From IMG/VR virus record IMGVR_UViG_3300018050_002226: 64,000 nucleotides of DNA, one strand, 5' to 3'. Origin of the DNA: a virus. Lineage: Duplodnaviria > Heunggongvirae > Uroviricota > Caudoviricetes. The notes under the pieces are model-generated. The model worked only from the letters and a program-made list of their open reading frames with translations, made no database searches and was not told the origin of the DNA. A program made the position numbers and the translations under genes. Below are positions 3,055-49,900 of the stretch, in pieces (within the stretch, counting starts at the first letter, position 1; each line of letters begins with the position of its first letter).

Positions 3055-3174
3055 TAATAATTTGACATGCTAAATGATGGTAAGTACTTGTTGTTAGGTG
3101 TATACTTCTCTAAGGAGAAGGAACCGACAAGGATTTCTTGACAGTTCACAATTTATTTTTGTATATTTGCTGGG

Positions 3175-11225: not shown

Positions 11226-11825
11226 TCAATATGGATAATCATACCCGAACATTTCAAGATAATCTTTTGCCACATATTTTATATGTTCAATCATATCTTT
11301 TGTATAAAACTCTTTTTCTGCGTCACTGAAAAAAGTACCATTCATTCTTTTTTTACATAAATCATATAAAGCACCTGATTGACATATTTTTGAGTTGTAA
11401 ACGAAAGGAATTTTTATATAATCAGTCCACAGTTGCTCAACTCTAATCGGATAATCAGGTTTTCTATCTTGGAACATGATAAAACCCAAATCAAAGTTTC
11501 GTTCTGACTTTTCATGAAAAAAATTTCTGAAATTTTTGACAGTGAATTCATCTTTATTTGTTAATCTGTACTTGAATTCTGATACAAGTTTTGTGAAAGG
11601 ATTTCTTATGGTACAGATGAATTTGTAGTTATCGTGTCCTGTAAATAAATCCATAGCGTGATTATGACTCAAAAATTTTTCTCTCAAATCACTACCACCA
11701 GTGCTTTTAGTAACAAAATCAAAATGATTGAAAATAAAAGAAGCATGTAACGAACCAGTTTTAGGTGGCATCCACAAAAAGGCTTTGTTTTTTTCTGAAA
11801 TATTTACAGTATAGTTGTTTTTCAT
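11226..11825 (-). CDS. carbohydrate-type sulfotransferase-like protein (paralog of 22159..22758)
   Basis: 5'-PSB-like PPKTGS and 3'-PB-like RNPFTKLVSEF motifs. Confidence 0.6.
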   Translation of the reverse strand: MKNNYTVNISEKNKAFLWMPPKTGSLHASFIFNHFDFVTKSTGGSDLREKFLSHNHAMDLFTGHDNYKFICTIRNPFTKLVSEFKYRLTNKDEFTVKNFRNFFHEKSERNFDLGFIMFQDRKPDYPIRVEQLWTDYIKIPFVYNSKICQSGALYDLCKKRMNGTFFSDAEKEFYTKDMIEHIKYVAKDYLEMFGYDYPY

Positions 11826-13027
11826 ACAAATACTTTTGGAATTTCATCCCAATCTGTCGTAAACTTCTGTGAAATAAACTCCTGTCTCATTTCCCAATTC
11901 TTTTCAACATTTACAGGTGGTTGAACAATTTGTATTGAACTTGAAAACAATGTTGCCTGTTCAACATTCTCAGGCATTAATTCATTGAATATAATTCCAC
12001 ATTTTTTATACCTTTTTCCGTTTTTAAACATTTTTTTAAGGTGTGGATAAATTTGAGACCAAATTTGATTTATATCTCGGGTTTGTTGTTGAAATAATAT
12101 TTGTCTACTCGAATAATGTTTTTCATCCTTGTGTTTATTACCTGCCATGAAAATGGTTGCTCTATTTGGAGATATTCCATTATCTTCCAATTTTTTAACT
12201 CCGTTTTTAACATATGAATACATAGCCTCCGCAATTTGGTCAAAAGAATCAATGTCCTGTCCAAACGAACGTGTCGAGGCCACATTTCTTTTTAATTTTG
12301 GGACAGGTTGAATGGGATGACAATACATTCCAAGGATTTCCATTTTTGTTTTTAGACCGTTCACATTCATCATTTTTCTAACAAGTCCATCATTCAACAT
12401 AACAAATTGACCGATACTTTCAACACCAATCATTTTTAATTTCTTTGACCACTTTCTACCAATCCCCCAAACTTCGTCAACTGAAATATTATAAAGTGAA
12501 TTTCTAAAATTTTGTAAATTCCAATAAGAACAAACCCCATCATATGATGGTTGTTTTTTTGCAATGTGTGAAGTTAGTTTAGCTAAAGTTTTATTTGGTC
12601 CTACTCCAATTGAAACGGGAATACCTGTAAGTCTTTTAACTTCATTTCTTATTAGGTGTAGTCGGTCTAACAACTCTTCTGATGGGATGTTCGAGAAATC
12701 GACAAAACATTCATCAATTGAATACACTTCAACTTCATTCGCATACTTTTTTATGACCGTCATTACTCGGTCTGACATATCTCCGTATAGATTGTAATTA
12801 GAAGAATATACACAGAACCTGTGTTCTTCCATAAAATCCTTTTTTTGGAAGAATGGTTCACCCATCTTTATTCCGAGGTCTTTAGCTTCTTGCGAACGTG
12901 CAATTACACATCCATCGTTGTTTGATAATACGACAGTTGGTTTTCCGATTGATACGGGATTAAATACTCTTTCGCAACTTACATAGAAATTGTTACAGTC
13001 TACAATACCAATCTTTTTATTTTCCAT
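11822..13027 (-). CDS. umuC: Y-family translesion DNA polymerase, UmuC-like
   Basis: near-colinear match to UmuC N-terminus: VDCNNFYVSCERVF..KPTVVLSNNDGCVIARS..SSNYNLYGDMSDRVM..YSIDECF. Confidence 0.9.
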   Translation of the reverse strand: MENKKIGIVDCNNFYVSCERVFNPVSIGKPTVVLSNNDGCVIARSQEAKDLGIKMGEPFFQKKDFMEEHRFCVYSSNYNLYGDMSDRVMTVIKKYANEVEVYSIDECFVDFSNIPSEELLDRLHLIRNEVKRLTGIPVSIGVGPNKTLAKLTSHIAKKQPSYDGVCSYWNLQNFRNSLYNISVDEVWGIGRKWSKKLKMIGVESIGQFVMLNDGLVRKMMNVNGLKTKMEILGMYCHPIQPVPKLKRNVASTRSFGQDIDSFDQIAEAMYSYVKNGVKKLEDNGISPNRATIFMAGNKHKDEKHYSSRQILFQQQTRDINQIWSQIYPHLKKMFKNGKRYKKCGIIFNELMPENVEQATLFSSSIQIVQPPVNVEKNWEMRQEFISQKFTTDWDEIPKVFV

Positions 13028-25654: not shown

Positions 25655-26218
25655 TTATTCCATTACCGGCAAAATTCCTGATGGATTTTTATAAGAGTCT
25701 CCCATAATTCTATAAGTTACAATTTCTCCTAAATCAGGAAAGCTTATTTGTTCCACCACAATACCCCACTTTTCAACTTCATTATTAACAGCCGGTGTAA
25801 CGGTGTTACCAAGTTCATAAAGGTCACTCCAATTTGAGCTTTCTACCACGTCTCGAATAATACCTTGTGTTGTATCAATTAAAACATCATTCGCGTGCAT
25901 TACGCCCAAGAGAAATTTTTCAACGTCATCAATGTGATAACGGACAATACTCGAAAGAACGACACTTTTTTCATCCAAGGATGTCACCGTTTGAGGTTTT
26001 AAGTTTACCGTTTGGGTAATGACAGGAGTAGTTAAAATTTGGTCAAAAAAAGGGATTTTCCAGTTCAAACCAGGAAGAACTACTCTCAGAAACTTTCCGG
26101 TTCTAAGATGAACTCCTTGTTCCCATTGGTCTACGATTTTCCAAGGTAAAATGTCATTAATAAAAGTAACGATTAGGTCAATGAGTTTGTCAAACATATC
26201 TTTTCTTTTATGATACAA
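25655..26218 (-). CDS. SPFH/band-7 (prohibitin/HflK-like) domain protein
   Basis: VDQWEQGVHLRTGKF..VLPGLNWKIPFFDQI..IVRYHIDD pattern. Confidence 0.6.
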   Translation of the reverse strand: MYHKRKDMFDKLIDLIVTFINDILPWKIVDQWEQGVHLRTGKFLRVVLPGLNWKIPFFDQILTTPVITQTVNLKPQTVTSLDEKSVVLSSIVRYHIDDVEKFLLGVMHANDVLIDTTQGIIRDVVESSNWSDLYELGNTVTPAVNNEVEKWGIVVEQISFPDLGEIVTYRIMGDSYKNPSGILPVME

Positions 26219-26275: not shown

Positions 26276-27316
26276 TTAGAATTCGGTGTCTGCACTTGCA
26301 ACCCTTGTAGTTGGTTTTGTTGTGGTTTCAGAATTAGAAGGTTGAGAGTTTGCACCAAATTGTGATTGTGCGAACTTTTGGAAACCTTTAGATGCGCTTG
26401 GGATTTGAGCTTTAGGTGGAGTTGTATCAATTTTCGTGGAAGATTGAGATTGTGTTGTATCTACTTTTGATGAAGTTGTTGTATTTGTAGTAGGAGATGA
26501 ATTAAGATAATTTACCCTTTGAAGTTTCCACCATTTATTTGTTCTCGGACCAAATTTACCATAACCTTTAGGGACGCTACCATTCAGAACTTTGTATTTG
26601 TCATGCCAACCCTCATGGTTTTTATCTAACCAATCTTGGAATTTTTTTACACCCTCGATGTCTTTCAATTCTGATGGAATTGGAACAGCTTTTTTAGGGG
26701 CAACTGTTTGTGAATTTTTCTTATCAAATAATTTGTATTCATCCACTTCTGAAGAATCAACATCTGTTATTTCAACAACACCAGGTTTAGTTTTACTACA
26801 TTTGTATGTATACTTGTACTTATCCCCACTTTCGACATATATTGCTTTTCCGTCAGGCCAAAATCTCCAAACGTGAACCGGTTTTCCAATGCCGTCAGAG
26901 CTTACTAAAGCTGTTGTGATTTCTTTATATTCTTCACCGTTGAATCCAATACAAGATACATCTATTTTGAGGTTTGCCGCTTGAACACCTTGTTGTATAG
27001 CTTTTCCAACTCCTGTGTCAGAGGTTTGTTTGTTAGCGGTACTTGTATCAACCGCGGAGGTAGGAGTTTGAGTGCCCCCAAAAACAGATTTTAATGTGTT
27101 TGTTTTCAACTTTCCCTGTTTAGCTAAATCGTCAGCTGCTTTGGCTGTCACAGGACCAAAACCTTGAGTTAATGCTGCTTGTTGGTTTGTTGTGAGATTG
27201 GCTTTTTGTTCGAGGACTATCAACTTATTTTCGTTCAAAGTTTTTGATGAATCATAATTCATTCTCAATTTGATTGTTTCTAAAGCCTCCTGAGGCGAAA
27301 GTTTTTTTATGTACAT
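26276..27316 (-). CDS. Thr/Ser/Gln-rich low-complexity protein (start at Met MYIKK; long form would read through a terminator)
   Basis: ORF track 26276..27451 trimmed. Confidence 0.45.
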   Translation of the reverse strand: MYIKKLSPQEALETIKLRMNYDSSKTLNENKLIVLEQKANLTTNQQAALTQGFGPVTAKAADDLAKQGKLKTNTLKSVFGGTQTPTSAVDTSTANKQTSDTGVGKAIQQGVQAANLKIDVSCIGFNGEEYKEITTALVSSDGIGKPVHVWRFWPDGKAIYVESGDKYKYTYKCSKTKPGVVEITDVDSSEVDEYKLFDKKNSQTVAPKKAVPIPSELKDIEGVKKFQDWLDKNHEGWHDKYKVLNGSVPKGYGKFGPRTNKWWKLQRVNYLNSSPTTNTTTSSKVDTTQSQSSTKIDTTPPKAQIPSASKGFQKFAQSQFGANSQPSNSETTTKPTTRVASADTEF

Positions 27317-27340
27317 CGTATTTTTTCTTATAAATACTTC

Positions 27341-27377
27341 AAAAAACAAAAAACCCCAACCGTAGAGACGGTCAGGG
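27341..27377 (-). terminator. strong minus-strand terminator: CCCTGACCGTCTCTACGGTTGGGG hairpin + TTTTTTGTTTTTT
   Basis: seen in sequence. Confidence 0.55.
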
Positions 27378-28349
27378 TCAGGCAAAAAACTCTGAGAATA
27401 CAAGCTTTGTTGAGAATCTTTAGAAGGATTATTTATTCCCTCCGTTTCCACTGTCTTTTGAACAGTAACTCTCAGTGACGGTCAATTAGATTAACCAATC
27501 CTTAAATCGTTGAATACTCTCTCCTTACTCATCACTCTTCGAGGTTGCCACCCCAATTCTTCCTTGCGGGAATAGAGAACTTTCGTGAAAATCGTGAAGG
27601 GCTTGGGACCCAACACGGTCATGAACATCTCAAGACTATGTAGTCACCTGTTTCCAACGACTGACAGACACTTTTCCTTGATTTTAATTATAAGTTGTTA
27701 AACCAGAATTAACAATTAAGGGTTGGTTTACGGATGTGGAAAGTAGCGGTCTGTCACCAGCCGTGTCGCCTTTTGAACGACACGATACTAAACTACTCTC
27801 TGAAGTCTCCCGACCTCCATACTTCAAGTCAACTTCAGTGATACGCTCTTGGTAGAGACGTTTCAAGGTTAATAACAGCACCACCTGTACATCAACTTAC
27901 CTTTCGGTTTTAAGTCAACTTTCATATTGAATTACGTGATGACTATGGTGGAAGCCATAATTTCTCACATAGATTCCTCAGGTTATTCTTATTAGTCTTC
28001 CGACCTCAACGAGACGACCCGTATCGCCCCGTATTCCAACCACTTTCCCTACAGTGTTACCCTCAGTACTAAAGGTCAGAACATATCCTGATTGCCTACT
28101 CGAGTACCCCTTTGATACCGCAGAACACTAAAACCTGGTGTCCCACTTTATACTACTTTCGTAGTTTATTTAATGACCATAGGCGGCCAATATCTTAAAA
28201 CAAAGAACTATCAAGTATTGAAGGAGAGTGGAAATTTTTTACAACCCCCGACTTCGGTAAGGAACTTTACAACCCTTTTCCTTCAACTGTCTTACAAAAT
28301 TAAGAAGAACTTTTCAATTCGTCAAATTTTTATAAAACTTTTTTTTTCG
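27378..28349 (-). ncRNA. candidate large structured non-coding RNA directly 3' of tRNA-Met on same strand (identity unknown)
   Basis: ~970 nt with no credible ORF in a gene-dense genome; visibly higher GC; many local hairpins; bounded by tRNA and terminator. Confidence 0.3.
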
Positions 28350-28422
28350 TTGCATGGGTCAGAATCGAACTGACGACCTCCAGGTTATGAGCCTGGCGAG
28401 CTACCGCTGCTACTACCATGCG
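28350..28422 (-). tRNA. tRNA-fMet: tRNA-Met (anticodon CAT), initiator-like (C1.A72 mismatch)
   Basis: 73-nt cloverleaf built by hand: acceptor CGCATGG/CCATGCA, U8, D-loop GG, anticodon loop CUCAUAA, T-loop TTCGATT; CCA not encoded. Confidence 0.85.
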
Positions 28423-28519
28423 ATATAATAAAACTACCCAAGTCCCCGTGTCACCATCCAAGTCATGCTCTGGTTGAACCTTGAGTAGAAGTATGTTAAA
28501 GAACTACTTTGATAATAAA

Positions 28520-28577
28520 GTCCCACAAAAATAAGGTGAGATAATTTAACTTCCAAATTTTGTGGGACTTTTTTTTT
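28520..28577 (+). terminator. hairpin GTCCCACAAAA..TTTTGTGGGAC followed by T9
   Basis: seen in sequence. Confidence 0.45.
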
Positions 28578-28805
28578 GAGATTACTGCTTCATTCATCTC
28601 GTGAGGACCGATTTTATTGAAACTTCTCAGTTTCTTCAGTTCTCATGTTGGGGATGTTCATCCTTTCGGATAAGAACATATAAATATCTCCAAGTTTCGG
28701 AAAATCATCCTAACCTGTCAATATTTTTTTTGATTTGTTGATTTATTTTGAACCAACCGTAAAGTCCGATGACAGTTATAATTGTTATAGATATCAATAA
28801 AACTT

Positions 28806-29225
28806 TCATTGTAGTACGATTTCAATAAGTTTATACATATATTCACCACACTGTCCAAAATCAATCTCATCTAATTTAAAGTATTTCCATTCAGTGTGTT
28901 CTTCACCATCTTTTGCTACGGAAAAGTCAGGTTCAATTGGCTGGTCGGTATCAAGTTGATAAACGTACATCATCCCTTTCACTTTTTTTCCGTCTCTTGT
29001 GTGTCTCGGAAGAAGTCCGATGAACTTTATGTTTCTATCTGAAATGTCCACGGCAGTTTCTTCCACAAACTCTCTTTTCGCACTATCTTGAGAGTTTTCA
29101 CCTTCCTCCATCTTTCCACCTGGTATTGACCACATACCAGGGAAAGACCCCAAGTTATTTCTTTTGCAAAGGAGAACTTCGTCTCCACATTTCACTAAAA
29201 CGCCAGCGTATCTTTTTGATTCCAT
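28806..29225 (-). CDS. Nudix hydrolase
   Basis: Nudix box GGKMEEGENSQDSAKREFVEETAV. Confidence 0.85.
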   Translation of the reverse strand: MESKRYAGVLVKCGDEVLLCKRNNLGSFPGMWSIPGGKMEEGENSQDSAKREFVEETAVDISDRNIKFIGLLPRHTRDGKKVKGMMYVYQLDTDQPIEPDFSVAKDGEEHTEWKYFKLDEIDFGQCGEYMYKLIEIVLQ

Positions 29226-29311
29226 TTGTATTTATTATTGTGTTTGTCAAAATTAACAAAAATATTTTTAAAACAAAAGTTCTAACCGATAAAAAATCTC
29301 AAGCAATTGGG

Positions 29312-29587
29312 ATGATGGGTAAAACTTTCAATAAAGACTTTGAAGCTCTTTTATTTTTGATGAGTGGGAACAAACAATGTTTTTGGATGAAAAATTGTAT
29401 TATACCCTTAGATATCATAATGATAAAAAATAATGTAATTGTTAATATTCACTCTGATTGTCCTCCTTGCGATGAAGACCCTTGTCCAACATATTGTGGA
29501 AATGGAAATATTGTTTTGGAGTTACCGGGAGGTTATTGTGATACTGTTGGTATAGAACCCGGCGATTGGGTTGAGTATCATTTTTAA
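29312..29587 (+). CDS. DUF192-like protein (true start may lie upstream at a non-ATG codon to include a TM helix)
   Basis: FWMKNCIIPLDIIMI ... VLELPGGY pattern. Confidence 0.45.
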   Translation: MMGKTFNKDFEALLFLMSGNKQCFWMKNCIIPLDIIMIKNNVIVNIHSDCPPCDEDPCPTYCGNGNIVLELPGGYCDTVGIEPGDWVEYHF

Positions 29588-31008
29588 TTTGACACTTCTT
29601 TTTCTTTTTGTTGTTCCTCTTGAATTTTTTCTTTCAGTATATTGAAAAATTTTGTTCCGAGTTGTTTCATGAATTTAATATACGGAACATCTGGCTTGTC
29701 AGGGTCGTATCTGTATGGGTCCTCTGATGGTCTTGTCTTTCTTCCAAGAAAATTTAGACCTGAAATATTCGTGATACACTTGTGTCCTCCTGAGTTAGAT
29801 TGAATAAAATCCCACATATTAATTCCAATCTTGTCCAAAAGTTGTTTTTCTTCTTCTTTGAGTTCTGAAAAAGGTTTGTCCATCATGGGTTTTATTCTAT
29901 CTAAAATTTCGTTACCCCCATCAATAAATGCAATTTTACCACCGAAAAGGGCATTGAAGTCTTTGAATGTAAATCCAACATCACCTGGTTTGGTTGATAT
30001 TTCACTTAACCATTTGATTGTCGAAAGGGGGATTGTTCTTGATTTGAGTTGGCTTTCAAAAGGTTTCAGAACGTCCTGAGCCATCTCTCCCAAATTAACT
30101 CCTTTCAACTTTCTATCTTTTTTGAAAGGGTTACATGAGACTTGTAAAAGTCCCATCGGCCACATTAGAATTAAAAAGTCCGCATTCGGATTTACTCTGA
30201 AAGGAGTGTATCTATCGTAAGAACCTGACTTCATACTTCCCGCACCATACTGAAAAATTATTCCGTCTTCTACTCTTACCTTGGGATATTTTTTCATTTG
30301 TTCCAAGTAATCATCGGACCTCTGTTGGAGAGTAGCGAAGTCTTCAGCACTTGTCATTTTCATCCATTTCTTGATGTTATTGAAAATAGACATGAGGGAG
30401 GGTTCTGAGTCCATAACCAAACTCTCCATAAACCCTTTTCGGTTTTTGAAAGCTAAAATCAGTTTGTTGATAACCAACCCAAGTAACATTTTATTTTTCT
30501 GAAGGGTCTTATCTTTATCTAATCTAAAGATATAATTTACAACATCCTCTGGTGTGATTTCATGTTTCAAAAAGTTAGCTGAGTCTACAGTACTGATTAA
30601 AAGTATATCAGCGGTTGGAAATATTTCCTTAGGTGAAACAATTTGAGATATTGTTTCAACGTTCGAACGGGCTTGTCTGAATGATTTAGAAGCCTCAGGT
30701 TCTGCACCAACCTGCCTATCGTGGTGGTCAGTATGAATAACAAACATCGGTTTACCGTGTGCGAAATCTACGAGCACTGGCATTGTATCACCTTCAGCAT
30801 CCAACTTTTTAACTGCAAATTCCTTGTCCCCATATTGAATGGTATGTGCTCCAACGACCTTGATACCATTGTCCTCAAGGTATTTTTTCATTGCAATTGC
30901 GGTGGTCACCCCATCAAGGTCAAGGTGAAAATAAATTTCGGCTTTTGGGTATCTTTTCCTCAAAGCCGAAATATCTCTTAAACCAGACTCTTTTAATAGT
31001 TTTTTCAT
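29584..31008 (-). CDS. DHH/DHHA1-family phosphoesterase (NrnA/RecJ-like)
   Basis: HLDLDG, FAHG, VIHTDHHD motifs; C-terminal SGGHK (GGGH-like). Confidence 0.6.
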   Translation of the reverse strand: MKKLLKESGLRDISALRKRYPKAEIYFHLDLDGVTTAIAMKKYLEDNGIKVVGAHTIQYGDKEFAVKKLDAEGDTMPVLVDFAHGKPMFVIHTDHHDRQVGAEPEASKSFRQARSNVETISQIVSPKEIFPTADILLISTVDSANFLKHEITPEDVVNYIFRLDKDKTLQKNKMLLGLVINKLILAFKNRKGFMESLVMDSEPSLMSIFNNIKKWMKMTSAEDFATLQQRSDDYLEQMKKYPKVRVEDGIIFQYGAGSMKSGSYDRYTPFRVNPNADFLILMWPMGLLQVSCNPFKKDRKLKGVNLGEMAQDVLKPFESQLKSRTIPLSTIKWLSEISTKPGDVGFTFKDFNALFGGKIAFIDGGNEILDRIKPMMDKPFSELKEEEKQLLDKIGINMWDFIQSNSGGHKCITNISGLNFLGRKTRPSEDPYRYDPDKPDVPYIKFMKQLGTKFFNILKEKIQEEQQKEKEVSN

Positions 31009-31301
31009 TTTCTTTTTTCTATCAAAAGGATTTCATGTTTTTTCCCTCTCTTATCGTACCCGTAATATTTTCCATCTTTTGAAAATTCAAACATAAATTT
31101 ACCTTTTGGTAAAGATGTTTTTACTTTAAAGATTTGGTCTTTCCCCATTTGAGAAAAAATAGTCAATATGTCTCCAATCAATTCTGCCTCAGCTGTTTGA
31201 CCAGGATTCATGAATAGTTCGAATTTTTTTTGTTCAGAGATAACCCTTTTTACAAGATTAATTAAGTCACCTTCGGTTAGTCTTACAATTTTTTTTGCCA
31301 T
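31005..31301 (-). CDS. hypothetical protein
   Basis: ORF track. Confidence 0.45.
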   Translation of the reverse strand: MAKKIVRLTEGDLINLVKRVISEQKKFELFMNPGQTAEAELIGDILTIFSQMGKDQIFKVKTSLPKGKFMFEFSKDGKYYGYDKRGKKHEILLIEKRK

Positions 31302-31672
31302 TAGTATTTGAGTGTTAATAAGTACTTAGATTTATTTATGAGACCCAACATCTCATCTCTAATGTTGAGTAAGTCTGTATCATATCTTGAATCGAGTTGG
31401 TCTGACATCCCAACAAAAAATTCAGTAATTCCATCTATGAAATTCTGCATACTCAATGCAGAAATATCTTGAAACATAATTCCGAATTCAGAGTCAAACT
31501 CAGGTCTTCCATATTTTCCCATCATTGTTTCAGTGAACTCATCTATCAATTCTCCCAACTTATCGTAGATGTCTCCATAAAGTCTGTGTTTAGCATCTCC
31601 AAAAGTTTGCCAATGTAAAAATTTAAATTGAAGTTGAATTTGAACGAGTTTTTTAATGAGTTCTTCTTTCAT
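31301..31672 (-). CDS. hypothetical protein (start at Met MKEEL; longer form overlaps upstream terminator)
   Basis: ORF track trimmed. Confidence 0.45.
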   Translation of the reverse strand: MKEELIKKLVQIQLQFKFLHWQTFGDAKHRLYGDIYDKLGELIDEFTETMMGKYGRPEFDSEFGIMFQDISALSMQNFIDGITEFFVGMSDQLDSRYDTDLLNIRDEMLGLINKSKYLLTLKY

Positions 31673-31703
31673 AGAAGTAATTTTTCTATAAATATCTTGA
31701 GAA

Positions 31704-31727
31704 TAAAAAAAGGGGTTTTTAAACCCC
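31704..31727 (-). terminator. terminator hairpin GGGGTTTTTAAACCCC + T-run overlapping stop of methyltransferase gene
   Basis: seen in sequence. Confidence 0.45.
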
Positions 31728-32582
31728 TTCTTCAAAATCTAATTTAGATTGTTTCTTTTTATCGATAAATTGTTGAACTCTCTTTTTAGCAATTTCACAA
31801 TAGTTCGGACTGAGTTCAATACCTACCCAGTTTCTTCCTGATATTACTGCCGCAACTGGAGTTGTACCAGAACCACAGAAAGGGTCTAAAACGACGTCAT
31901 TTTTGTAAGTGAGTATCTTCATAGCTTTCATTGGAATGTCCAAGGAAAAGGTTGCTTTGGTCATTTGTTTAGTGTCTGCAAAATATGTCCACTGTCCATA
32001 AACCAAATCCATAAACTCTTTCTTCTGTTCTTCAGTATAGAGAGTTTTTTTCTTTTTCGTTCCATCCTCTTGTTCAATCTCATCAATCACCCCAACCCAC
32101 TCGGGTTCTCCCTTAACAATCTTAATATGTTTAGACTTGTAAGCCAAGATAACACACTCTTTCGGATTGTAGATGTAAGGTGCAGAAGGAGACATCCATG
32201 AACCCCAAGCCGTTGTCTTACTTCTATGTGGAGAATCTTCATCTAAATCCACAATACCATAAAATTTAAAACCAATTCTTTGCATAATCTGCCAAAGTTC
32301 AGAGGCAATAAAAACTCTACCTCCTTTATCCTGTCGATTGATTTCATAAGGAACATTAAGAGCAATTCTACCATCCGCCTTCAGAACTCTATAAGCCTCG
32401 GTGAGCCATTTCTTTGAAAAGTCTTTGTAGTCCTCTATGTTCATATCATCATCAAATGAATCATATTCAATACCCACTCCATAGGGTGGTGAAGTAACAA
32501 TAAGGTCAATAGAGTTTTCAGGCATTTTAGCCATCTCAATTATACAATCACCATTTATTATATTTCCTAAAAAATTTTCCAT
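31719..32582 (-). CDS. DNA methyltransferase, beta-class N6A/N4C (SPPY)
   Basis: DLIVTSPPYGVG (motif IV) precedes VLDPFCGSGTT (motif I). Confidence 0.85.
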   Translation of the reverse strand: MENFLGNIINGDCIIEMAKMPENSIDLIVTSPPYGVGIEYDSFDDDMNIEDYKDFSKKWLTEAYRVLKADGRIALNVPYEINRQDKGGRVFIASELWQIMQRIGFKFYGIVDLDEDSPHRSKTTAWGSWMSPSAPYIYNPKECVILAYKSKHIKIVKGEPEWVGVIDEIEQEDGTKKKKTLYTEEQKKEFMDLVYGQWTYFADTKQMTKATFSLDIPMKAMKILTYKNDVVLDPFCGSGTTPVAAVISGRNWVGIELSPNYCEIAKKRVQQFIDKKKQSKLDFEEGV

Positions 32583-40593: not shown

Positions 40594-40611
40594 AAAAACC
40601 CTTTTTTTTTT
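40586..40611. terminator. bidirectional terminator GGGTTTAAAAAAACCC flanked by T10 / A-run between convergent genes
   Basis: seen in sequence. Confidence 0.5.
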
Positions 40612-43600
40612 ACTTAACTTTCATTTCAAGTTTTTCAAGTCTCTCCTCTTTTTCATCTAATAATAAAGACTGTTCTTTTATAGCTTGAAGACATAAAGCA
40701 ATAACTTCAGAGTATTTTACCATATAATGAGAATCTTTCTGATTCTTTTTGAATACAAGTTCAGGGAATATTTGTTGAATTTCTTGAGCGATAAATCCAA
40801 TGTCACTTACTTGAGGTCCGTGAGATTTGGTATCAATATTTTTCCACTCGAAAGATACACCTCTAAGTTTAAGAACTTTTGGTAAAACATTTTCAATCGA
40901 TTTAATGTTTTTCTTTACTCTATAATCCGAAGGTCCTGTTGCACCTTGAGCACCCTGAGCACCCTGAGGTCCCGTCCCACCTGCCGGACCTTGTGGTCCT
41001 GTAGGTCCTTTTGGACCTTGCGCACCTTGAGCTCCCGTTCCTCCTGGTGAACCTGTAGGTCCAAGTGGACCTTTTGCACCTTGTGAACCTTGAGCTCCTG
41101 TAGCTCCTGTAGGTCCTTGAGCTCCTTGACCACCCGCTGGTCCTTGAGCTCCTTGCGCACCTGTAATACCTGTTGCTCCAGCCGGTCCAACTGCACCTTG
41201 AGCTCCCTGACCACCTGTTCCACCTCCTCCCCCTTGAGCTCCTTGAGCACCTTGTCCACCAGCTGGTCCTTGTGCACCTTGAGCTCCACCTGGGCCTTGT
41301 GACCCTTGTGCTCCTTGACCACCCGCTGGTCCTTGAGCTCCTTGACCACCTTGAGGGCCTTGAGCTCCTTGAGCTCCTTGACCACCCGCAGGTCCTTGAG
41401 CTCCTTGACCACCTTGAGGACCTTGAGCTCCTTGTGCTCCCTGTCCTCCAGCCGGTCCCTGCGAACCTTGACCACCTTGTGGACCCTGAGCTCCTTGGGC
41501 ACCTTGACCTCCAGCTGGTCCTTGGGCACCTTGACCACCTGTTCCACCTATTAATCCTTGGGCGCCTTGTCCTCCAGTTGGTCCTTGTGAACCTTGTCCA
41601 CCTTGTGGACCCTGAGCTCCTTGGGCACCTTGACCTCCAGCTGGTCCTTGTGCACCTGTAGGTCCAAGGGGTCCTTTTTGACCTTGGGCACCTTGACCTC
41701 CACCAGGTCCCTGCGCACCTGTTGAACCTTGAGGCCCTTGAGCACCTTGTGCTCCTTGTCCTCCTGTTGGACCTTGAGCTCCTGTTGAACCTACAGGTCC
41801 TTGAGCACCTTGTGCTCCTTGACCTCCAGCGGCACCACCACCACCTTGGGCTCCTTGTCCACCTTGAGCTCCTTGGGTTCCTTGTCCACCTTGAGCCCCT
41901 TGACCACCTTGGGCTCCCTGTCCACCCTGTGAACCTTGAGTACCTTGACCTCCTTGAGCTCCTTGTCCACCTTGTGAACCTTGACCACCTTGAGCACCTT
42001 GAGCACCTTGAACACCACCCGGTCCTTGAGCTCCTGTTGAACCTTGAGGTCCTTGAGCACCTTGGGCTCCTTGTACACCGCCCGGTCCTTGAGCTCCTGT
42101 TGAACCTTGAGGTCCTTGAGCACCTTGGGCTCCCTGAGCACCGAGAGCTCCTTTAGCTCCAAAAGAACCCTGAGCACCTTGACCACCTTGGGCTCCTTGT
42201 CCTCCTTGAGCACCTTGACCACCTTGGGCTCCCTGTCCTCCTTGTGCACCCTGTCCACCTTGTCCGCCTTGGGCTCCTTGCCCTCCTTGAGCACCTTGAC
42301 CACCTTGGGCTCCTTGGGCTCCTTGTACACCGGTTGGACCTTGTGCCCCTGTGGGACCTTGAGGACCTTGACCACCTTGGGCTCCCTGTCCACCAGTAGG
42401 CCCTTGAGCACCTTGTGTACCTTGCGGTCCTTGTGTACCCTGAGCACCCTGTACACCAGCTGGACCCTGAGCACCAGTTAAACCCTGAGGACCTTGAGCA
42501 CCCTGTGCACCTGTCCCCCCTTGAGCACCTTGAGGTCCTTGAGCACCTTGTCCACCTTGAGCACCCTGTGTTCCTTGTCCACCTTGGGCACCTTGTCCCC
42601 CTACGGCACCCTGAGCACCTTGAGAACCCTGTACTCCTTTTGCACCTTGAGCACCTTGACCACCTTGAGCACCTTGACCACCTTGGGCTCCTTGGGCACC
42701 TTGTCCTCCTTGAGAACCCTGAGCTCCTTGTACCCCTTGAGCCCCTTGTCCTCCTTGAGCACCTTGACCACCCTGTGCACCCTGTCCTCCTTGAGAACCT
42801 TGAGCACCTACAGGTCCCTGTGAACCCTGACCACCTTGTGAACCTTGTCCACCTGTAGAACCCTGAGAACCTTGCCCTCCTTGAGCACCTTGTCCTCCTT
42901 GAGAACCTTGACCCCCCGTAAGACCCTGAGCACCTTGACCACCCTGTGCACCTTGACCACCCTGTGCACCTTGTCCTCCTTGGGCTCCTTGACCACCTTG
43001 GGCTCCTTGTGCTCCCTGACTTCCAGGTTGACCAATATCTCCTTGAGCTCCCTGTGCACCTTGCACTCCTTGCGCACCTTGTCCACCCTGTGCACCTTGT
43101 AGACCGGTTATTCCCTGAGAACCTTGAGCTCCTTGGGCACCCGTTCCTCCTTGAGAGCCTTGTCCCCCAACCGCGCCTTGTGCTCCCTGTGCTCCTTGTA
43201 CTCCTTGAGCACCTACCGCTCCTTGAGAACCTTGAGCTCCTTGTGACCCTTGGCCTCCTTGCGCACCTTGTCCTCCAATATTTCCCTGGGCACCTTGGTC
43301 TCCTTGAGCACCTTGTGCACCTTGTGAACCCTGAGCGAGTTTGTTTCCTAACCAACCTGTAGAATTAATTAATGGGCTTAGAGCATTATTACTTAATGAA
43401 TTTTCCAAGTAAATTGGAAAATCTGACCTTAATATATTTCCAGATGTGTGAATACTTAAATAAGCAGTACCTGCAGCATTATTATATGGTACAAATTTCA
43501 GAACCCCACCTTCCAATACCCAGTTCACAAATGTATCTGCACTACTTACAAGTTGCATTAAAGATAGTGAAGGAGCAACAATAATGTTTTCAGCAGTCCC

Positions 43601-43786
43601 ATTATTATCGCAATCTACAGAAGTTGTGGTTACATTAGTAAATGTTGCAGTGTCTTTTATACAAGGAGTATAAAGTGAAACCCCTTGATTAACATTACTA
43701 CTTACTGCGGTTAAAGATGCACAGAGTTCTCCACTCCATGAACCACCTCCTGTACCACCAACTACTTTATATATCTTACAAGCCAT
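40610..43786 (-). CDS. tail fibre/spike protein A: N-terminal domain, ~800-aa collagen-like G-X-Y tract, C-terminal intramolecular chaperone (peptidase S74-like) domain
   Basis: C-terminus [10 protein letters not shown]...LRGVSFEWK...[16 protein letters not shown] matches the endosialidase chaperone domain pattern. Confidence 0.8.
40931..43330. repeat. GXY-coding low-complexity repeat (collagen-like tract of fibre A)
   Basis: CCTTGAGCACC-type 9-bp periodicity. Confidence 0.8.
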
Positions 43787-43787
43787 C

Positions 43788-46700
43788 TTATGTTAATGTT
43801 TCAGTCAACTTATTTATCCTCTCATAAATAGAGTCAATACGTTTTTGATTTATTTTGAGATTTGCAAGTCCCAAACTAACAAGAGGTCCGTAGTGCATAC
43901 TTTTATAACCCTCATCATCTGTATCTACTACCTCAGGTATAATCTTCTCCACATCTTGAGCAATGAAACCGAAAGTAGTACCTGTGAAAGCTTCTTTGAA
44001 AACAATTGCTGGGTGTTCTTTGATTTTCCTGTGTTCTGTATCCCACTCAAATGATACACTTTCAATTGTTTTAATTTTTTTCTCAGGTTCTCTCAGCGGA
44101 ATAATATTATCCTTCAATCGGATGTCAGAAGATGGACCTTGAGCACCTTGTGCTCCCTGACCACCTGTTGGTCCCTGTGGACCTGTAGGACCTGTTGAAC
44201 CTCCAGCACCTTGAGCACCTTGAGCTCCCGTAGGTCCTTGTGGGCCAGTTGGTCCTGTTGCACCTGCTAATCCAGTCGCTCCGGGTTGACCCGAGGGTCC
44301 TACTGGTCCCGGAGCACCCGCGGTTCCACTTGCGGCACCTTGAGCACCCTGAGCGCCTTGGGGTCCTGTTGGACCAGGTCCTGACCCTTGTGAGCCCTGA
44401 GCTCCAGTAGGTCCTTGTGGTCCCGTACCACCTGGAGCACCTTGAGCACCTTGTGGACCGGGTCCCGCGCCTTGTGCTCCTGTGGCTCCACCTGGACCCG
44501 TAGCTCCTTGTGCACCTTGAGGACCGGGTCCTGAGCCTTGCGCCCCTGTATTTCCTGTTGGCCCTGTGGCTCCTTGTGCTCCTTGAGGACCAGGTCCTGA
44601 CCCTTGCGCACCTGTATTTCCTGTTGGCCCTGTGGCTCCTTGTGCTCCTTGAGGACCAGGTCCTGACCCTTGTGCTCCTGTATTTCCTGTGGGTCCTGGA
44701 GCACCTTGCGCTCCTTGGTTTGCTCCCTGAGAACCTTGGGCACCTTGAGCTCCTGTGGGTCCTGTTGCTCCTTGAGCTCCTGTGTTTGCACCCTGAGAAC
44801 CTTGAGCCCCTGTTGGCCCTGTTGGTCCTGTCGCACCCTGAGCACCTTGGTTCGCACCTTGAGAACCCTGAGCTCCCTGATTACCCTGAACACCTATGGC
44901 ACCTTGAGCTCCTGTGTTTGCACCCTGAGAACCTTGAGCACCTGTTGGCCCTGTTGGTCCTGTCGCACCTTGAGCACCTTGGTTCGCACCCTGCGAACCC
45001 TGTGCTCCTTGAGCTCCCGTATTTCCAGTTGCTCCCTGAGCACCTTGTGTTGAACTTGCTGAACCCTGAGCTCCTTGAGCTCCTGTTTTTCCTGTTGCAC
45101 CTTGAGCACCTGTTGTACCCCCTTGAGCTCCTGTGTTACCTTGAGCTCCCTGTGGACCCGTGGCTCCTTGTGCACCTGTATTTCCTCCTTGTGCTCCCTG
45201 AGAGCCTTGTGCACCTGTTTTTCCTGTCGCACCCTGAGCACCTGTATTAGCTCCTTGGGTTCCTTGAGCTCCCTGAGCACCTGTGGGTCCTGTGGCTCCT
45301 TGTGCTCCAGTGTTAGCACCTTGTGTACCTTGAGCTCCTTGAGCACCTGTAGGTCCTGTCGCACCCTGAGACCCTTGAGTTGCGCTAGCTGCTCCTTGAA
45401 ACCCTTGGGCACCTTGAGCTCCAGTACTCCCTTGAGCACCTGTTGTCGCACCCTGAGCTCCTGTATTTCCTTGAGCTCCTGTTGGTCCTTGAGCACCTGT
45501 TGGTCCTTGAACTCCACCTTTAGCCCCTTGCGAACCTTGAGCACCCGTATTACCTGTCGCACCTTGTGCACCCGCGTTTGCACCCTGAGTACCTTGAGCA
45601 CCTTGAGCACCTGTAGGTCCTGTAGGTCCTTGAGCTCCTTGATTTGCTCCCTGAGTACCTTGAGCACCCTGAGCACCTGTAGGTCCTGTAGCTCCTTGTG
45701 CACCTGTATTTGCACCTTGAGTACCTTGAGCACCTTGAGCACCTGTGGGTCCTGTAGCACCTTGCGCTCCCGTTGTTCCACCTTGAGCACCTTGTGAACC
45801 TTGAGCACCAGAAACTCCAAGGTCTCCTTGAGCACCTGTAGTTCCACCTTGCGCACCTTGACTCCCGACGGCTCCTTGAGCACCTTGGGCACCTTGTGAA
45901 CCCTGAACCCCACTTTGAGCACCTTGTGAACCTTGGGCACCCTGCTTTCCTGTTGCACCTTGTGCACCTGTCGGAGTACCTTGAGCTCCCTGAGCACCCT
46001 GCTTTCCTTGAGCACCTGTATTTCCTTGCGCCCCAACAGGACTACCTTGAGCACCTATGTTTCCTTGAGCACCTTGAGCACCTGTATTTCCTTGAGCTCC
46101 TGTGTTTGCTCCTTGTGCCCCCTGAGAGCCTTGAGCACCTTGAGCACCTGTATTACCTTGTGCACCGGTGTTCGCACCTTGTGCTCCTTGAGAGCCCTGA
46201 GCACCCTGAGCTCCTGTGTTACCTTGGGCACCTGTGGTTGCGCCTTGAGCACCTTGAGAACCCTGAGCACCTGTATTTCCTGTTGCACCTTGAGCACCTT
46301 GTTTAGCTCCTTGAGCTCCCTGAGCACCTTGAGCTCCTTGAGCTCCTTGTTTACCTTGTGCTCCAACTGTTGCACCTTGGTCCCCTTGAGCCCCCTGTGC
46401 TCCTTGATTTCCAACGGCTCCTTGAGCTCCTTGTGTTCCTCCTTGAGCTCCCTGAGTTCCTTGGGCACCTTGAGCACCTGTGGCACCAGTAGGACCTGAA
46501 ACCGCACTGGCTGTTCCCTTAGCACCCGTCGCACCTTGAGCTCCTGTATCACCCTGAGCACCTGTGTTTGCTCCTTGAGTACCTTGAGCACCTTGTTTAC
46601 CTGTAGCACCTTGTGCTCCTTGAGCACCTTGAGCTCCCGCAATACCTGCTGTAGGTCCAGTCCAAACTCCCGAAACATTAATCATTTGAGTTGGACCCAC

Positions 46701-46907
46701 ATATAATCCTGAATTATTTATAGTTAATCCTGAAGTTCTTATACCTTGAGGACCAATCATTAATCCTTGCGTGAATGTTCCCGCAGAAAAATTTAAAGTT
46801 CTTGCCGTTACAAAAAAAGCAACTTGATTGCTTCCATCATCCCAATAAAACCAAGGTCTACTATCGTAAGCATTACCCTGAGGAAATATCTTTAGTTCGT
46901 TCGGCAT
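43788..46907 (-). CDS. tail fibre/spike protein B: collagen-like tract ~840 aa + C-terminal S74-like chaperone domain
   Basis: C-terminus [13 protein letters not shown]...SVSFEWD...[16 protein letters not shown]. Confidence 0.8.
44133..46658. repeat. GXY-coding repeat (fibre B)
   Basis: as above. Confidence 0.8.
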
Positions 46908-49900
46908 CAGCTAATACTTTTTTCTAATTCATCAAGTTTATTATTAATATCTTCTATAAATAATTGATGTTCTTTAATTCCTTCAACTATCACGGCATTT
47001 AATTTTGTATAATCTATAAAATAATACCCGTCAGGTCCCATTTTAACCACTTGTGGGAAATGTAACCTTACGTTCTGTGCAATAAGACCTATTTGGTGAA
47101 GTTTTTTATTTTTTTCAAATATGTCATATTTTTCTTTACCTATATTTTCATTCCAATCATACTCAACAGTCTCGATTTCTATAATTTTATCCATTACCCC
47201 CTCTAAGGTCTCTATACTTTGTTTTAAATTTACGTCCGAATACGCACAGGTTTGATTGAAGGTTCCGTTACCACATGTTGCATTCAGAGTATAACACTGA
47301 TTAGCAGCGGTTTTTTCGTATTGATAAAGGTTACCGAAATCACAGCTTGAATTCGTACAGTTGGTATAATTGAAATATTTGTTGTCTGATGGTGAATATG
47401 TCCCACTTTGTGTGTAGATTGGACCTACAGTAAAAGTTTGTATACATACTGAAGTACAACTCGCACCCCTTCCTCCTCTCAAAATTGGATAATAGGCATA
47501 ACATGTTACACTTCCTGGTCCCGTTGCACCCTGAGCACCTTGTGAACCTGTAGCCCCCGTTGGACCTTGTGGTCCTGTAGGACCAGTCACACCAGTAGCT
47601 CCTTGAGCACCTTGACTACCTGTTGGACCAGTAGGACCAGTTCCTCCAGCGGGACCCTGAGGTCCTGTAGGACCTTGTGCACCTTGTCCCCCCTGTGGTC
47701 CAAGGGGACCGTTAGAACCTGGAGCCCCTGTGGCACCTACAGGACCTATTGGTCCTTTTGTTCCTGTTGCCCCTTGAGCACCTTGACCTCCTGTTGGTCC
47801 AGTTGGTCCAGTGGGACCAGTTGCACCTGTAGCACCCGTTGCACCTGCGGCACCTTGTGGTCCTGTAGGACCTTGTGGACCTGTTGCACCCGTTGCTCCT
47901 TTGGTTCCAGCAGCACCTTGTGGTCCTGTAGGACCTTGTGGTCCTGTCGCTCCTCCCGCACCGATAGGTCCAGTTGCACCTTGTGGTCCTGTAGGACCTG
48001 TTGGACCTACATTACCTGTGGCACCGATAGGTCCAGTTGCACCTTGTGGACCTGTTGGTCCTGTTGGACCTGTGTTTCCTGTTGGACCAAGAGCTCCGGT
48101 TGCACCTCCAGCACCTTGAGGGCCAATAGACCCTTTAGCACCTTGAGCTCCAGAATGACCGGTGGCACCTTGCGGACCAGTTGGTCCGGTTGGACCTGTG
48201 GCACCTTGAGCTCCCGGGTGTCCCGTTGCTCCTTGAAATCCTGTAGGTCCTGCGGGTCCTAATGCACCTTGTGCACCAGGATGACCCGTGGCACCTTGAG
48301 CACCTTGTCCACCTGTTGGTCCGAGAGCTCCTTGAGCGCCAGGATGTCCAGTTGCTCCTTGAGCTCCTTGTGGACCCGTAGGTCCAATGTTTCCTGTCGG
48401 TCCAAACGCACCTTGGGCACCTGTTGACCCTTGAGCACCTGCTGTTCCTGTGGCCCCTTGTGGTCCTACGGCACCTACATTACCAGTAGCACCTGCTGGA
48501 CCTGTTGGTCCAGTTGCCCCTTGTGGTCCTAAAGCCCCTTGAGCACCTGTACTACCTTGAGGTCCGGCTGGACCTGTTGCTCCTTGTGCACCTGGATGAC
48601 CCGTTCCTCCCTGAGCACCTTGTCCTCCTGTTGGTCCGAGTGCTCCTTGAGCGCCAGGATGTCCAGTTGCTCCCTGAGCTCCTTGTACACCTGTGGGTCC
48701 AGTGTTTCCTTGTGGTCCAATGGTTCCTTGAGCACCAGTTGCACCTTGTGCACCTTCGTTTCCTGTTGCCCCCTGTGGACCTACCGCCCCAACACTTCCT
48801 GTTGCACCCTGTGAACCGGTTGCTCCTTGATTTCCGAATGGTCCAGCAAGACCCTGAGCACCTGTACTTCCCTGTGAACCTACAGGACCTACGGAGCCTT
48901 GTGCACCAGGATGTCCTGTCCCACCTTGTGCCCCTTGTGGACCTGTTGGTCCTATTGCTCCTTGTGCACCAGGGTGTCCTGTCGCGCCTTGAGCTCCCTG
49001 TGGACCTGTTGGTCCTAAAGCGCCTTGTGCACCAGGATGTCCTGTCCCACCTTGTGCCCCTTGTGGACCTGTCGGTCCTGTCGCTCCTTGTGGGCCAACC
49101 GCTCCTTGAGCACCAACTTTTCCCTGAATACCTTGAATACCTTGAGCACCTTGTGGTCCCAAATTACCTTGAGCCCCTGTGGCTCCTTGCGCACCAGTAT
49201 CTCCAGTGGCCCCTTGTGGACCAACAGCACCCTGTGCACCTGTATCTCCTTGAGCTCCTGTCGGGCCTGCAGCTCCCTGTGCTCCGGTGTTACCTTGTGC
49301 ACCCGTTGGGCCTTGAGCACCTTGTGGACCTGTGGCACCTTGTGCCCCTGTGAGTCCTTGAGCACCTGTGTTTCCTTGAGCTCCTGTCGGACCTGTGGCA
49401 CCTTGTGCTCCAGTATGCCCTTGGGCGCCTGTGTTTCCTTGGGCTCCTGTTGGGCCAGTGGCACCTTGGGCACCTGTGTTTCCTTGGGCACCTGTGTTTC
49501 CTTGTGCTCCAGTCGGACCTGTGGCACCTTGTGGACCAACATTTCCCTGTGCACCCGTACTTCCTTGTGAACCAACAGGTCCAACAGCACCTTGTGCACC
49601 AGTGTGTCCCTGTGCACCTGTATTTCCTTGAGCACCAATTGGTCCTTGTGCACCTTGTGGTCCCACTGGTCCTTGTGCACCTGTATCTCCAAAAGGCCCT
49701 TTAACACCTTGAGCCCCTTGAGGTCCAACATTCCCCTGAGCACCTGTATTACCCTGAGCCCCTTGAGTACCTTGGGCACCTTGAGGTCCTATACTACCTT
49801 GGGCACCTTGTCCACCCTGTGCACCGTTTGTACCAATGGAACCTTGAGCCCCCGTATTACCCTGAGCCCCTTGGGTTCCTTGTGTACCTTGATTTCCTTT

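What the first reader, a model, noticed from the sequence alone, without database searches (positions are those of the whole stretch)
27341..28577. Candidate large structured ncRNA co-transcribed with an initiator-like tRNA-Met
Between the tRNA at 28350..28422 (minus) and a strong minus-strand terminator (27341..27377) lies ~970 nt with no credible ORF. The only ORFs there, 27684..27884 and 28173..28373, are short and lack start context. Gaps of this size are rare in this window, which otherwise packs a gene every few hundred bp. GC is visibly higher here, roughly 40-45% by eye against ~30% around it; this was not computed exactly. The segment is full of local GC hairpins, e.g. GTGTCG..CGACAC at 27761-27781 and CCGACTTCGG near 28240. 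Large ornate ncRNAs such as GOLLD and ROOL are known to sit next to tRNA genes in phage genomes (established knowledge). Whether this is one of them, a tmRNA-like RNA, an intron-derived RNA, or a new class is inference. I looked for a tmRNA resume codon and tag, RNase P, and group I/II core motifs and could not recognise any.
Basis: partly seen in the sequence, partly recalled or inferred. Interest (0 to 1): 0.75.

Follow-up and report, generated by a model that had tools for sequence, protein, structure and literature searches.

The report
GOLLD RNA beside phage initiator tRNA

Summary
A tRNA-Met lies at 28350..28422 (-), an intrinsic terminator at 27342..27379 (-), and about 970 nt between them has no credible ORF. 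The GC contrast was overstated: 40% against a window mean of 36%.

Rfam identifies 27389..27800 (-) as the complete GOLLD model (RF02032) at 324.5 bits (cut-off 150, E 4e-92). The other half, 27801..28190, aligns end to end (66% identity) with the 5' domain of GOLLD env-38. That RNA has a cryo-EM structure showing a 14-mer nanocage, and it also sits downstream of a Met-tRNA. Thirty-four dereplicated viral-contig relatives give strong covariation for the 5' domain. The sequence motifs I could locate for nine of the ten cage bridges are conserved in the window, one kissing loop through compensatory changes.

ROOL, tmRNA, RNase P and intron models do not match. The tRNA is initiator-like (C1xA72, A73, A11:U24, 2 of 3 anticodon-stem G-C pairs).

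Co-transcription is plausible but unproven. No terminator separates the two genes, but a conserved Bacteroidetes-type promoter match lies between them.

One possibly new point: in 25 of 34 relative clusters an initiator-like tRNA is GOLLD's immediate neighbour.

Verdict: a new member of a known kind, of modest interest.

The parts
28526..28557 (-). Promoter-like site P1 upstream of the tRNA (TTTG-N20-TATTTTTG, Bacteroidetes -33/-7 type)
   Evidence: Exact consensus match. The window has 10 matches, all on the minus strand, against 2.4 expected. An equivalent match sits upstream of the tRNA in relative L112. Function is inferred.
28350..28422 (-). tRNA-Met (anticodon CAU), initiator-like. It has C1xA72, G2:C71, C3:G70, A73 and A11:U24. 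The anticodon stem CCAGG/CCUGG gives 2 of the 3 canonical G-C pairs. There is a 1-nt insertion in the D arm and no encoded CCA.
   Evidence: ARAGORN. Rfam tRNA 51.9 bits, with the first pair flagged non-canonical. Acceptor and anticodon-stem parse.
28295..28326 (-). Promoter-like site P2 between the tRNA and GOLLD (TTTGACGAATTGAAAAGTTCTTCTTAATTTTG)
   Evidence: Exact Bacteroidetes-type consensus. Positionally conserved in L088, L112, L114, L021, L040 and L010. 19 of 33 dereplicated relatives have such a match within 300 nt upstream of GOLLD, against 0 of 33 control regions.
28217..28287 (-). Leader hairpin between P2 and GOLLD (outer stem UUGAAGGA...UCCUUCAA)
   Evidence: MFE structure. The energy z-score is not significant. 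The outer stem changes in a compensatory way in relatives (L114 UGGAGGG/CCCUCCA; L021 UCGGGGG/CCCCCGA). This was judged by eye on a few sequences.
28202..28210 (-). TAGTTCTTT box 12 nt upstream of the GOLLD 5' end. A second copy lies at 28498..28506 upstream of the tRNA.
   Evidence: 4 exact copies in the window, two of them here. AGTTCTTT is found upstream of GOLLD in 20 of 33 relatives at 11-14, 49-52 or 66-81 nt, with 0 in controls. It is also present in the 634-kb phage LR745206.1. Role unknown.
27801..28190 (-). GOLLD 5' domain, the counterpart of env-38 residues 1-420 (the 'cap' of the cage)
   Evidence: 66% identity (285 of 432 columns) to the env-38 5' domain. 34-sequence alignment A1 with 106 predicted pairs, 72 of them with compensatory changes. 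95.9% of cells are paired against 36-44% for slid controls.
27389..27800 (-). GOLLD 3' domain, the universally conserved part, covering Rfam RF02032 model positions 1-416
   Evidence: 324.5 bits against gathering 150, E 3.6e-92, not truncated. 66% identity to the env-38 3' domain.
27663..27738 (-). Unpaired A/U-rich linker inside the 3' domain, the counterpart of the disordered interior loop of env-38. No tRNA is embedded here.
   Evidence: Unpaired model columns 63-138 in the cmscan alignment. ARAGORN finds no tRNA there. The disordered linker is described in PMC12286853.
27342..27379 (-). Intrinsic terminator 9 nt after the GOLLD 3' end
   Evidence: 12-bp stem with 6 G-C pairs, a 4-nt loop and a T-rich tail. 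An equivalent hairpin plus T-run follows GOLLD in L088.

Best explanation
Window 28190..27389 (-), about 802 nt, is a full-length GOLLD RNA gene of the env-38 structural type, carried by a large phage of a probable Bacteroidota host.

Shown:
- Family membership by covariance model.
- End-to-end homology of both domains to the RNA whose cryo-EM structure is solved.
- Covariation across relatives.
- Conservation in the window of the sequence motifs I could locate for nine of the ten intermolecular bridges.

Inferred:
- The gene is transcribed from a promoter about 100 nt upstream (P2), and possibly also by read-through from the tRNA promoter (P1).
- Transcription ends at the intrinsic terminator just after the last GOLLD hairpin.
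- The roughly 100-nt leader is trimmed.
- The RNA folds into a 5' 'cap' domain and a 3' 'ring' domain. Like env-38, it self-assembles without protein into a closed homo-14-mer cage held together by A-minor contacts and kissing loops.

The biological role of GOLLD is unknown in the literature. My working hypothesis is that it acts in translation during lytic growth, because its fixed partner in this lineage is an initiator-type tRNA.
For: - Rfam GOLLD at 324.5 bits, model 1-416 complete.
- The window aligns with env-38 positions 4-813 at 66% identity in both the 5' and 3' domains. The env-38 sequence and structure come from PMC12286853.
- More than 120 viral contigs share the 5'-domain motif. 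They fall into 34 clusters at 90% identity.
- 5'-domain covariation: 72 of 106 pairs have double changes. The covariation score is 0.552 against 0.08-0.12 for slid controls, and 0 of 500 shuffles reach it.
- Bridge motifs taken from the paper's interaction table are conserved in the window and in the family consensus: GAAA (B1), GGGUAAC (B2), GGAA (B3), GUGGUG/ACCA (B5), CAAAAG twice (B6, B10), CGCAAG (B8) and GGCA (B9).
- Kissing loop B4 changes from GGGAU/AUCCC in env-38 to GGGAG/CUUCC in the window, still giving 5 pairs.
- Relatives L075, L088, L005 and the huge phage LR745206.1 are also Rfam GOLLD at 287-325 bits.
- The context is a phage: three collagen-like fibres with an S74 chaperone domain, a DNA methylase, a NUDIX protein and a Y-family polymerase.
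- Terminator. Promoter matches.
Against: - No expression, end-mapping or assembly data exist for this sequence.
- Cage formation is extrapolated from a 66%-identical homologue.
- My copy of the env-38 sequence is a machine-read PDF with about 17 nt missing and some errors. Residue numbering was therefore re-anchored by local context.
- The receptor sides of the A-minor bridges and the 2-bp B7 contact were not checked residue by residue.
- The promoter and host assignments rest on consensus matches only.
Confidence: 0.93

Rival explanations
1. The tRNA and GOLLD are one functional module: a co-transcribed, co-processed pair in which GOLLD acts on or with the phage initiator tRNA.
For: - No terminator lies between the tRNA and GOLLD in the window.
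- An initiator-like tRNA-CAU is the immediate same-strand neighbour in 25 of 34 dereplicated clusters: 17 upstream and 8 downstream.
- In the downstream arrangement the tRNA starts 7-22 nt after GOLLD, and in two examples (L075, L014) the terminator clearly follows the tRNA.
- There are 36 distinct neighbour tRNA sequences, 34 of them with a non-Watson-Crick 1:72 pair.
- In loci that carry tRNA arrays the order is initiator tRNA, then GOLLD, then the array.
- The same arrangement occurs in the 634-kb phage LR745206.1, and env-38 also lies downstream of a Met-tRNA.
- In this window it is the only tRNA in 64 kb.
Against: - Most loci share upstream synteny (Mtase, p144, RecJ/DHH-like, NUDIX), so the adjacency may be inherited within one phage lineage rather than selected independently.
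- 7 of 34 clusters have no tRNA within about 3 kb.
- A conserved promoter match sits between the tRNA and GOLLD.
- In phiCbK-like phages the nearby tRNA-Met genes are on the opposite strand.
Confidence: 0.3
2. A different or new class of large RNA: ROOL, tmRNA-like, RNase P, a group I/II intron remnant, or a novel class.
For: None.
Against: At E<=10 on 27250..28650 the only significant Rfam matches are GOLLD and tRNA. All other listed matches fall far below their gathering scores. The Rfam GOLLD match plus the end-to-end alignment with env-38 account for all of 27389..28190.
Confidence: 0.01
3. The segment encodes a conserved protein through a non-standard start, or is a decayed, non-functional GOLLD remnant.
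For: Short ORFs of 45-66 aa exist.
Against: - The short ORFs have no Pfam match.
- Substitutions among relatives preserve base pairs, with 95.9% of cells paired.
- The Rfam model match is complete and untruncated, with only 3 non-canonical pairs flagged.
- The bridge motifs, the promoter match and the terminator are all retained.
Confidence: 0.02

Closest known systems
GOLLD RNA env-38 (JCVI_SCAF_1096627009515/1239-410; cryo-EM structure PDB 9MEE; Kretsch et al., Nature 2025, PMC12286853)
   Same: - Two-domain architecture over about 800 nt.
- 66% identity across both domains.
- Lies downstream of a Met-tRNA.
- Bridge motifs conserved.
- A/U-rich internal linker.
   Different: - The hairpin carrying the B4 partner loop is 3 nt shorter, and the kissing pairs have changed in a compensatory way.
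- Several peripheral hairpins differ in length.
- A hairpin insertion seen in env-38 and some relatives is absent (alignment A1, columns 319-335).
- Assembly of the window RNA is untested.
Rfam RF02032 GOLLD family (Weinberg et al. 2009; described as often near tRNAs and in prophages, PMC5737381)
   Same: Full model match at 324.5 bits. Phage context and tRNA adjacency.
   Different: The Rfam model covers only the conserved 3' half. The 5' half had to be identified separately.
ROOL RNA (also forms a phage-associated RNA nanocage, an 8-mer)
   Same: Same kind of genomic context (phage, near tRNAs) and probably a similar physical behaviour (self-assembling cage) according to PMC12286853.
   Different: No sequence or structure match. 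ROOL is absent from the Rfam results even at E<=10.
GOLLD in phiCbK-like Caulobacter and Brevundimonas phages, and in mycobacterial tRNA arrays
   Same: Rfam GOLLD (165 bits in phiCbK). It is embedded among stable-RNA genes, including tRNA-Met and tmRNA (PMC6582537).
   Different: In these the tRNA-Met and tmRNA genes lie on the opposite strand. A tRNA (Gly in phiCbK) sits inside the GOLLD linker. The 5' domain is divergent.

Membership tests
GOLLD RNA (RF02032) | Covariance-model score at or above the curated gathering score, over the whole model | tested here: met
   324.5 bits against 150, model 1-416 of 416, not truncated.
GOLLD RNA (RF02032) | A second, less conserved 5' domain giving a total length of about 800 nt | tested here: met
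   27801..28190 aligns with env-38 residues 4 to about 420 at 66% identity. Total length is about 802 nt.
GOLLD RNA (RF02032) | Secondary structure supported by covariation among homologues | tested here: met
   5' domain: 72 of 106 pairs have double changes, and the score is 0.552 against at most 0.12 for slid controls. 3' domain: fits the Rfam structure. The shuffle control is not tree-aware.
GOLLD RNA (RF02032) | Phage or prophage context, near tRNA genes | tested here: met
   Phage genes surround it. The tRNA lies 159 nt upstream.
GOLLD env-38-type nanocage | Conservation of the residues that form intermolecular bridges B1-B10 | tested here: met
   Donor loops and kissing loops are conserved or covary. 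The receptor sides of the A-minor contacts and the 2-bp B7 contact were not checked individually.
GOLLD env-38-type nanocage | Assembly into a homo-14-mer with D7 symmetry | not testable with these tools
   Requires in vitro transcription followed by mass photometry or cryo-EM.
Bacterial initiator tRNA (tRNA-fMet) | Mismatch at 1:72, with G2:C71, C3:G70 and A73 (formylation determinants) | tested here: met
   C1xA72 is flagged non-canonical by cmscan. The parse gives CGCAUGG/CCAUGCA with discriminator A.
Bacterial initiator tRNA (tRNA-fMet) | Three consecutive G-C pairs, 29-31 with 39-41, in the anticodon stem | tested here: not met
   The stem is CCAGG/CCUGG: A29:U41, then G30:C40 and G31:C39, so 2 of 3. 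Most neighbour tRNAs in relatives share this pattern. For this reason I call it 'initiator-like' rather than a proven initiator.
Bacterial initiator tRNA (tRNA-fMet) | A11:U24 in the D stem | tested here: met
   The D stem is G(U)AGC/GCUC, with an A:U pair at positions 11:24 and one inserted U (alignment).
ROOL / tmRNA / RNase P / group I and II introns | Match to the respective Rfam covariance model | tested here: not met
   None appears among the matches at E<=10 on 27250..28650, on either strand, or at gathering score in the whole window.

The most novel reading that the evidence does not exclude
In this widespread lineage of large aquatic phages, GOLLD and an initiator-type tRNA-Met form a conserved two-gene RNA module. 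The tRNA sits either just upstream or directly abutting downstream within one transcription unit, and the pair is kept even when no other tRNA is nearby. This would imply that the GOLLD cage acts in translation initiation, for example by sequestering, delivering or protecting the phage initiator tRNA or initiating ribosomes. A conserved AGTTCTTT box and leader hairpins may serve as shared processing signals.
Probability: 0.25. Interest if true: 0.65.

Novelty: new member of a known kind. Interest (0 to 1): 0.3.

Why it matters
As an identification it is ordinary. Rfam annotates half of the element at default thresholds, and the other half matches a published structure.

Its value lies in context. 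GOLLD has a solved architecture but no known function. This window and its roughly 120 relatives offer a clean comparative set. In that set GOLLD's most constant partner is an initiator-like tRNA, the order of the two genes flips while adjacency is kept, and the quaternary-contact motifs are conserved or covary. That gives a concrete, testable lead (translation initiation) for an open question, but it does not answer it.

Tried and rejected
- The sigma-70-type match GTGACA-18-TATTAT at 28454..28425 was rejected as the tRNA promoter. Its start site would fall inside the tRNA, and the number of such matches in the region is below chance.
- The long-loop hairpin GTCCCACAAAA...TTTTGTGGGAC at about 28520-28566 first looked like an upstream terminator. 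It overlaps the promoter match P1, and relative L112 keeps the promoter but not the 5' arm.
- The leader hairpin has an unremarkable folding energy (z -0.01). RNAalifold on 17 heterogeneous leaders gave no consensus. Its support is only by-eye covariation within the close subclade.
- No close relative of the phage exists in the INPHARED collection. The polymerase tblastn search gave only about 35% identity to UmuC-like genes and no host clue.
- The RecJ/DHH-like neighbour has no PDB sequence match and only faint NCBIfam and Pfam hits.
- I could not obtain Weinberg 2009 or Morgado 2020. A search for 'GOLLD' plus 'initiator' returned nothing relevant. The novelty of the initiator-tRNA link is therefore unverified.
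- Two supplement term searches failed or found nothing, and one literature search was uninformative.

Full report
**Observation**

The minus strand of 27341..28577 carries the following features.
- A tRNA-Met(CAU) at 28350..28422. It is the only tRNA in the 64-kb window.
- A strong intrinsic terminator: stem 27379..27352 followed by a T-run.
Neither has a Pfam match.

This is the largest stretch in the window without an ORF of 100 aa or more. The GC claim is only partly right: 40.3% for the finding against 36.1% for the window and about 31-37% in the flanks. The surrounding genes are phage genes. They include three tandem collagen-like fibres with an S74 chaperone domain, an N6/N4 DNA methylase, a NUDIX hydrolase and a Y-family polymerase.

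**Identity of the 3' half**

A gathering-threshold Rfam scan of the whole window returns two matches, the tRNA and GOLLD (RF02032). GOLLD lies at 27389..27800 (-), at 324.5 bits against a cut-off of 150, E 3.6e-92. It covers model positions 1-416 without truncation. A permissive scan (E<=10) of 27250..28650 adds only sub-threshold noise. It gives no ROOL, tmRNA, RNase P or intron match.

**Identity of the 5' half**

The Rfam model covers only the universally conserved 3' region of GOLLD. Kretsch et al. (PMC12286853) describe GOLLD env-38 as follows.
- It is 833 nt long and lies 'downstream of Met-tRNA'.
- Its 5' domain spans residues 1-420 and its 3' domain residues 421-833.
- It forms a D7 homo-14-mer nanocage.

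I took the env-38 sequence from their Supplementary Table 4. That copy is machine-read: 816 nt were recovered, with a few errors. A local alignment runs end to end, from window 28189..27392 to env-38 4-813. Identity is 66% in both the 5' domain (285 of 432 columns) and the 3' domain (273 of 411). The whole gap from 28190 to 27389 is therefore one GOLLD gene of about 802 nt.

**Relatives and covariation**

Ninety-one of these hold a full-length element, and they fall into 34 clusters at 90% identity. The closest to the window are L088 (93%) and L114 (84%). Several were confirmed as Rfam GOLLD at 287-325 bits.

RNAalifold on the 34 representatives of the 5' domain predicts 106 pairs, 72 of them with compensatory double changes. 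On that structure:
- 95.9% of cells are paired, against 36-44% when partners are slid by 1-3 columns.
- The covariation score is 0.552, against 0.08-0.12 for the slid versions.
- No shuffle out of 500 reaches the observed values.

The shuffle control ignores phylogeny, but the slid control does not. The gap between them is large.

**Does it work like env-38?**

The paper's interaction table lists the residues of the ten intermolecular bridges. I re-anchored them by local sequence context, because my env-38 copy is imperfect. All the donor motifs I could locate are present in the window and in the family consensus:
- the invariant GAAA tetraloop (B1)
- GGGUAAC (B2)
- the GGAA loop (B3)
- GUGGUG and ACCA (B5)
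- two CAAAAG loops (B6, B10)
- the CGCAAG loop (B8)
- GGCA (B9)

The B4 kissing loop is GGGAU/AUCCC in env-38 and GGGAG/CUUCC in the window. That still gives five pairs, through a double change plus one G-U pair. L046 shows AGAGAU/AUCUC. I infer, but cannot show, that the window RNA forms the same kind of cage.

**The tRNA**

It has C1xA72, G2:C71, C3:G70, discriminator A73 and A11:U24. These are the bacterial initiator hallmarks, as I know them from E. coli tRNA-fMet. It has only two of the three anticodon-stem G-C pairs (A29:U41), and it has a one-base insertion in the D arm. 'Initiator-like' is the right description.

**Transcription units**

Two exact matches to the Bacteroidetes promoter consensus TTTG-N19-21-TAnnTTTG lie here. 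I know this consensus from work on Bacteroides promoters. One match is upstream of the tRNA (28557..28526) and one lies between the tRNA and GOLLD (28326..28295). The window has 10 such matches, all on the coding (minus) strand, against 2.4 expected.

The internal match is positionally conserved in the close relatives. Nineteen of 33 dereplicated relatives have one within 300 nt upstream of GOLLD, against none in control regions. No terminator lies between the tRNA and GOLLD. GOLLD therefore probably has its own promoter, and read-through from the tRNA promoter is possible. Co-transcription is plausible but undemonstrated.

In eight relative clusters the order is reversed. The initiator-like tRNA starts 7-22 nt after the last GOLLD hairpin with no terminator in between, and in two examples (L075, L014) a clear terminator follows the tRNA. 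There the two genes must share a transcript.

**The one possibly new point**

In 25 of 34 clusters an initiator-like tRNA-CAU is the immediate same-strand neighbour of GOLLD, upstream in 17 and downstream in 8. The neighbours comprise 36 distinct tRNA sequences, and 34 of them have a non-Watson-Crick 1:72 pair. Where a tRNA array exists, the order is initiator tRNA, then GOLLD, then the array. The 634-kb phage LR745206.1 has the same layout, with a homologous 5' domain.

Against reading too much into this:
- Most loci share upstream synteny (methylase, a 144-aa protein, a RecJ/DHH-like protein, NUDIX), so they form one phage lineage and the adjacency may be inherited.
- Seven clusters have no tRNA nearby.
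- In phiCbK-like phages the nearby tRNA-Met and tmRNA genes are on the other strand.

[quoted passage not shown] I could not access the original 2009 description.

**Verdict**

It is a new member of a known RNA family with a solved homologue, not a new class. Interest is modest. The residual interest lies in the GOLLD and initiator-tRNA linkage and in the conserved leader signals.

Noticed in passing
window 40610..50236 (-): Three tandem genes of 1039-1109 aa encode collagen triple-helix repeats ending in a Peptidase_S74 (endosialidase chaperone) domain. They are probably tail fibres. Their GC content is 46-57% in a genome of about 33% GC, which makes them the most GC-rich part of the window.
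   Followed up: partly
window, 10 sites: 14377, 22117, 24973, 25643, 26216, 28295, 28526, 34502, 34852, 37687 (all on the minus strand): The Bacteroidetes-type promoter consensus TTTG-N19-21-TAnnTTTG occurs 10 times against 2.4 expected, always on the main coding strand. This suggests a Bacteroidota host and use of the host sigma factor.
   Followed up: partly
window 28202..28210 and 28498..28506 (-); L122 (LR745206.1) about 1727..1735: A TAGTTCTTT / AGTTCTTT box lies upstream of both GOLLD and the tRNA. It is conserved upstream of GOLLD in 20 of 33 relatives at discrete distances (11-14, 49-52, 66-81 nt), and it is also present in a 634-kb phage. It may be a processing or transcription signal. 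Its role is unknown.
   Followed up: partly
window 28217..28287 (-): A leader hairpin lies between the internal promoter match and GOLLD. Its outer stem covaries among close relatives, but its folding energy is unremarkable.
   Followed up: partly
window 28806..32582 (-); 25-30 of the 34 relative clusters: The gene block of DNA methylase, a 144-aa protein, a 474-aa protein with a faint RecJ/DHH N-terminal match, and a NUDIX hydrolase is conserved immediately upstream of the tRNA/GOLLD locus across most relatives. NUDIX and DHH enzymes act on nucleotide or RNA ends, but a link to GOLLD is speculative.
   Followed up: partly
L075, L025, L035, L041, L019, L006, L048, L014, L037: In these relatives an initiator-like tRNA-CAU begins 7-22 nt after the GOLLD 3' hairpin. 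In two examples (L075, L014) a clear terminator follows the tRNA, so RNase P cleavage of the tRNA 5' end would define or approach the GOLLD 3' end.
   Followed up: partly
L005 5794..6173; L121 (phiCbK) 1625..2064; L124 (Bajun) 2907..3339: tmRNA genes, permuted in phiCbK, lie within a few kb of GOLLD and tRNA-Met in unrelated phage lineages. GOLLD therefore tends to sit in clusters of translation-related stable RNAs.
   Followed up: no
L002 and L107, about 375-463 nt upstream of the GOLLD motif: An 89-nt tRNA-CAU call has C1xA72 ends but carries an insertion of about 15 nt after the anticodon arm. It may be a long variable arm or an intervening sequence.
   Followed up: no
window 28409..28413 (-): The tRNA has a one-base insertion in the D arm (GUAGC instead of GAGC). 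The same insertion occurs in a subclade of relatives: L088, L112, L045, L079, L010 and L005.
   Followed up: no
window 11822..13027 (-) and 25655..26218 (-): The phage encodes a Y-family (UmuC-like) translesion DNA polymerase. It also encodes an SPFH/Band 7 domain protein two genes downstream of GOLLD.
   Followed up: no
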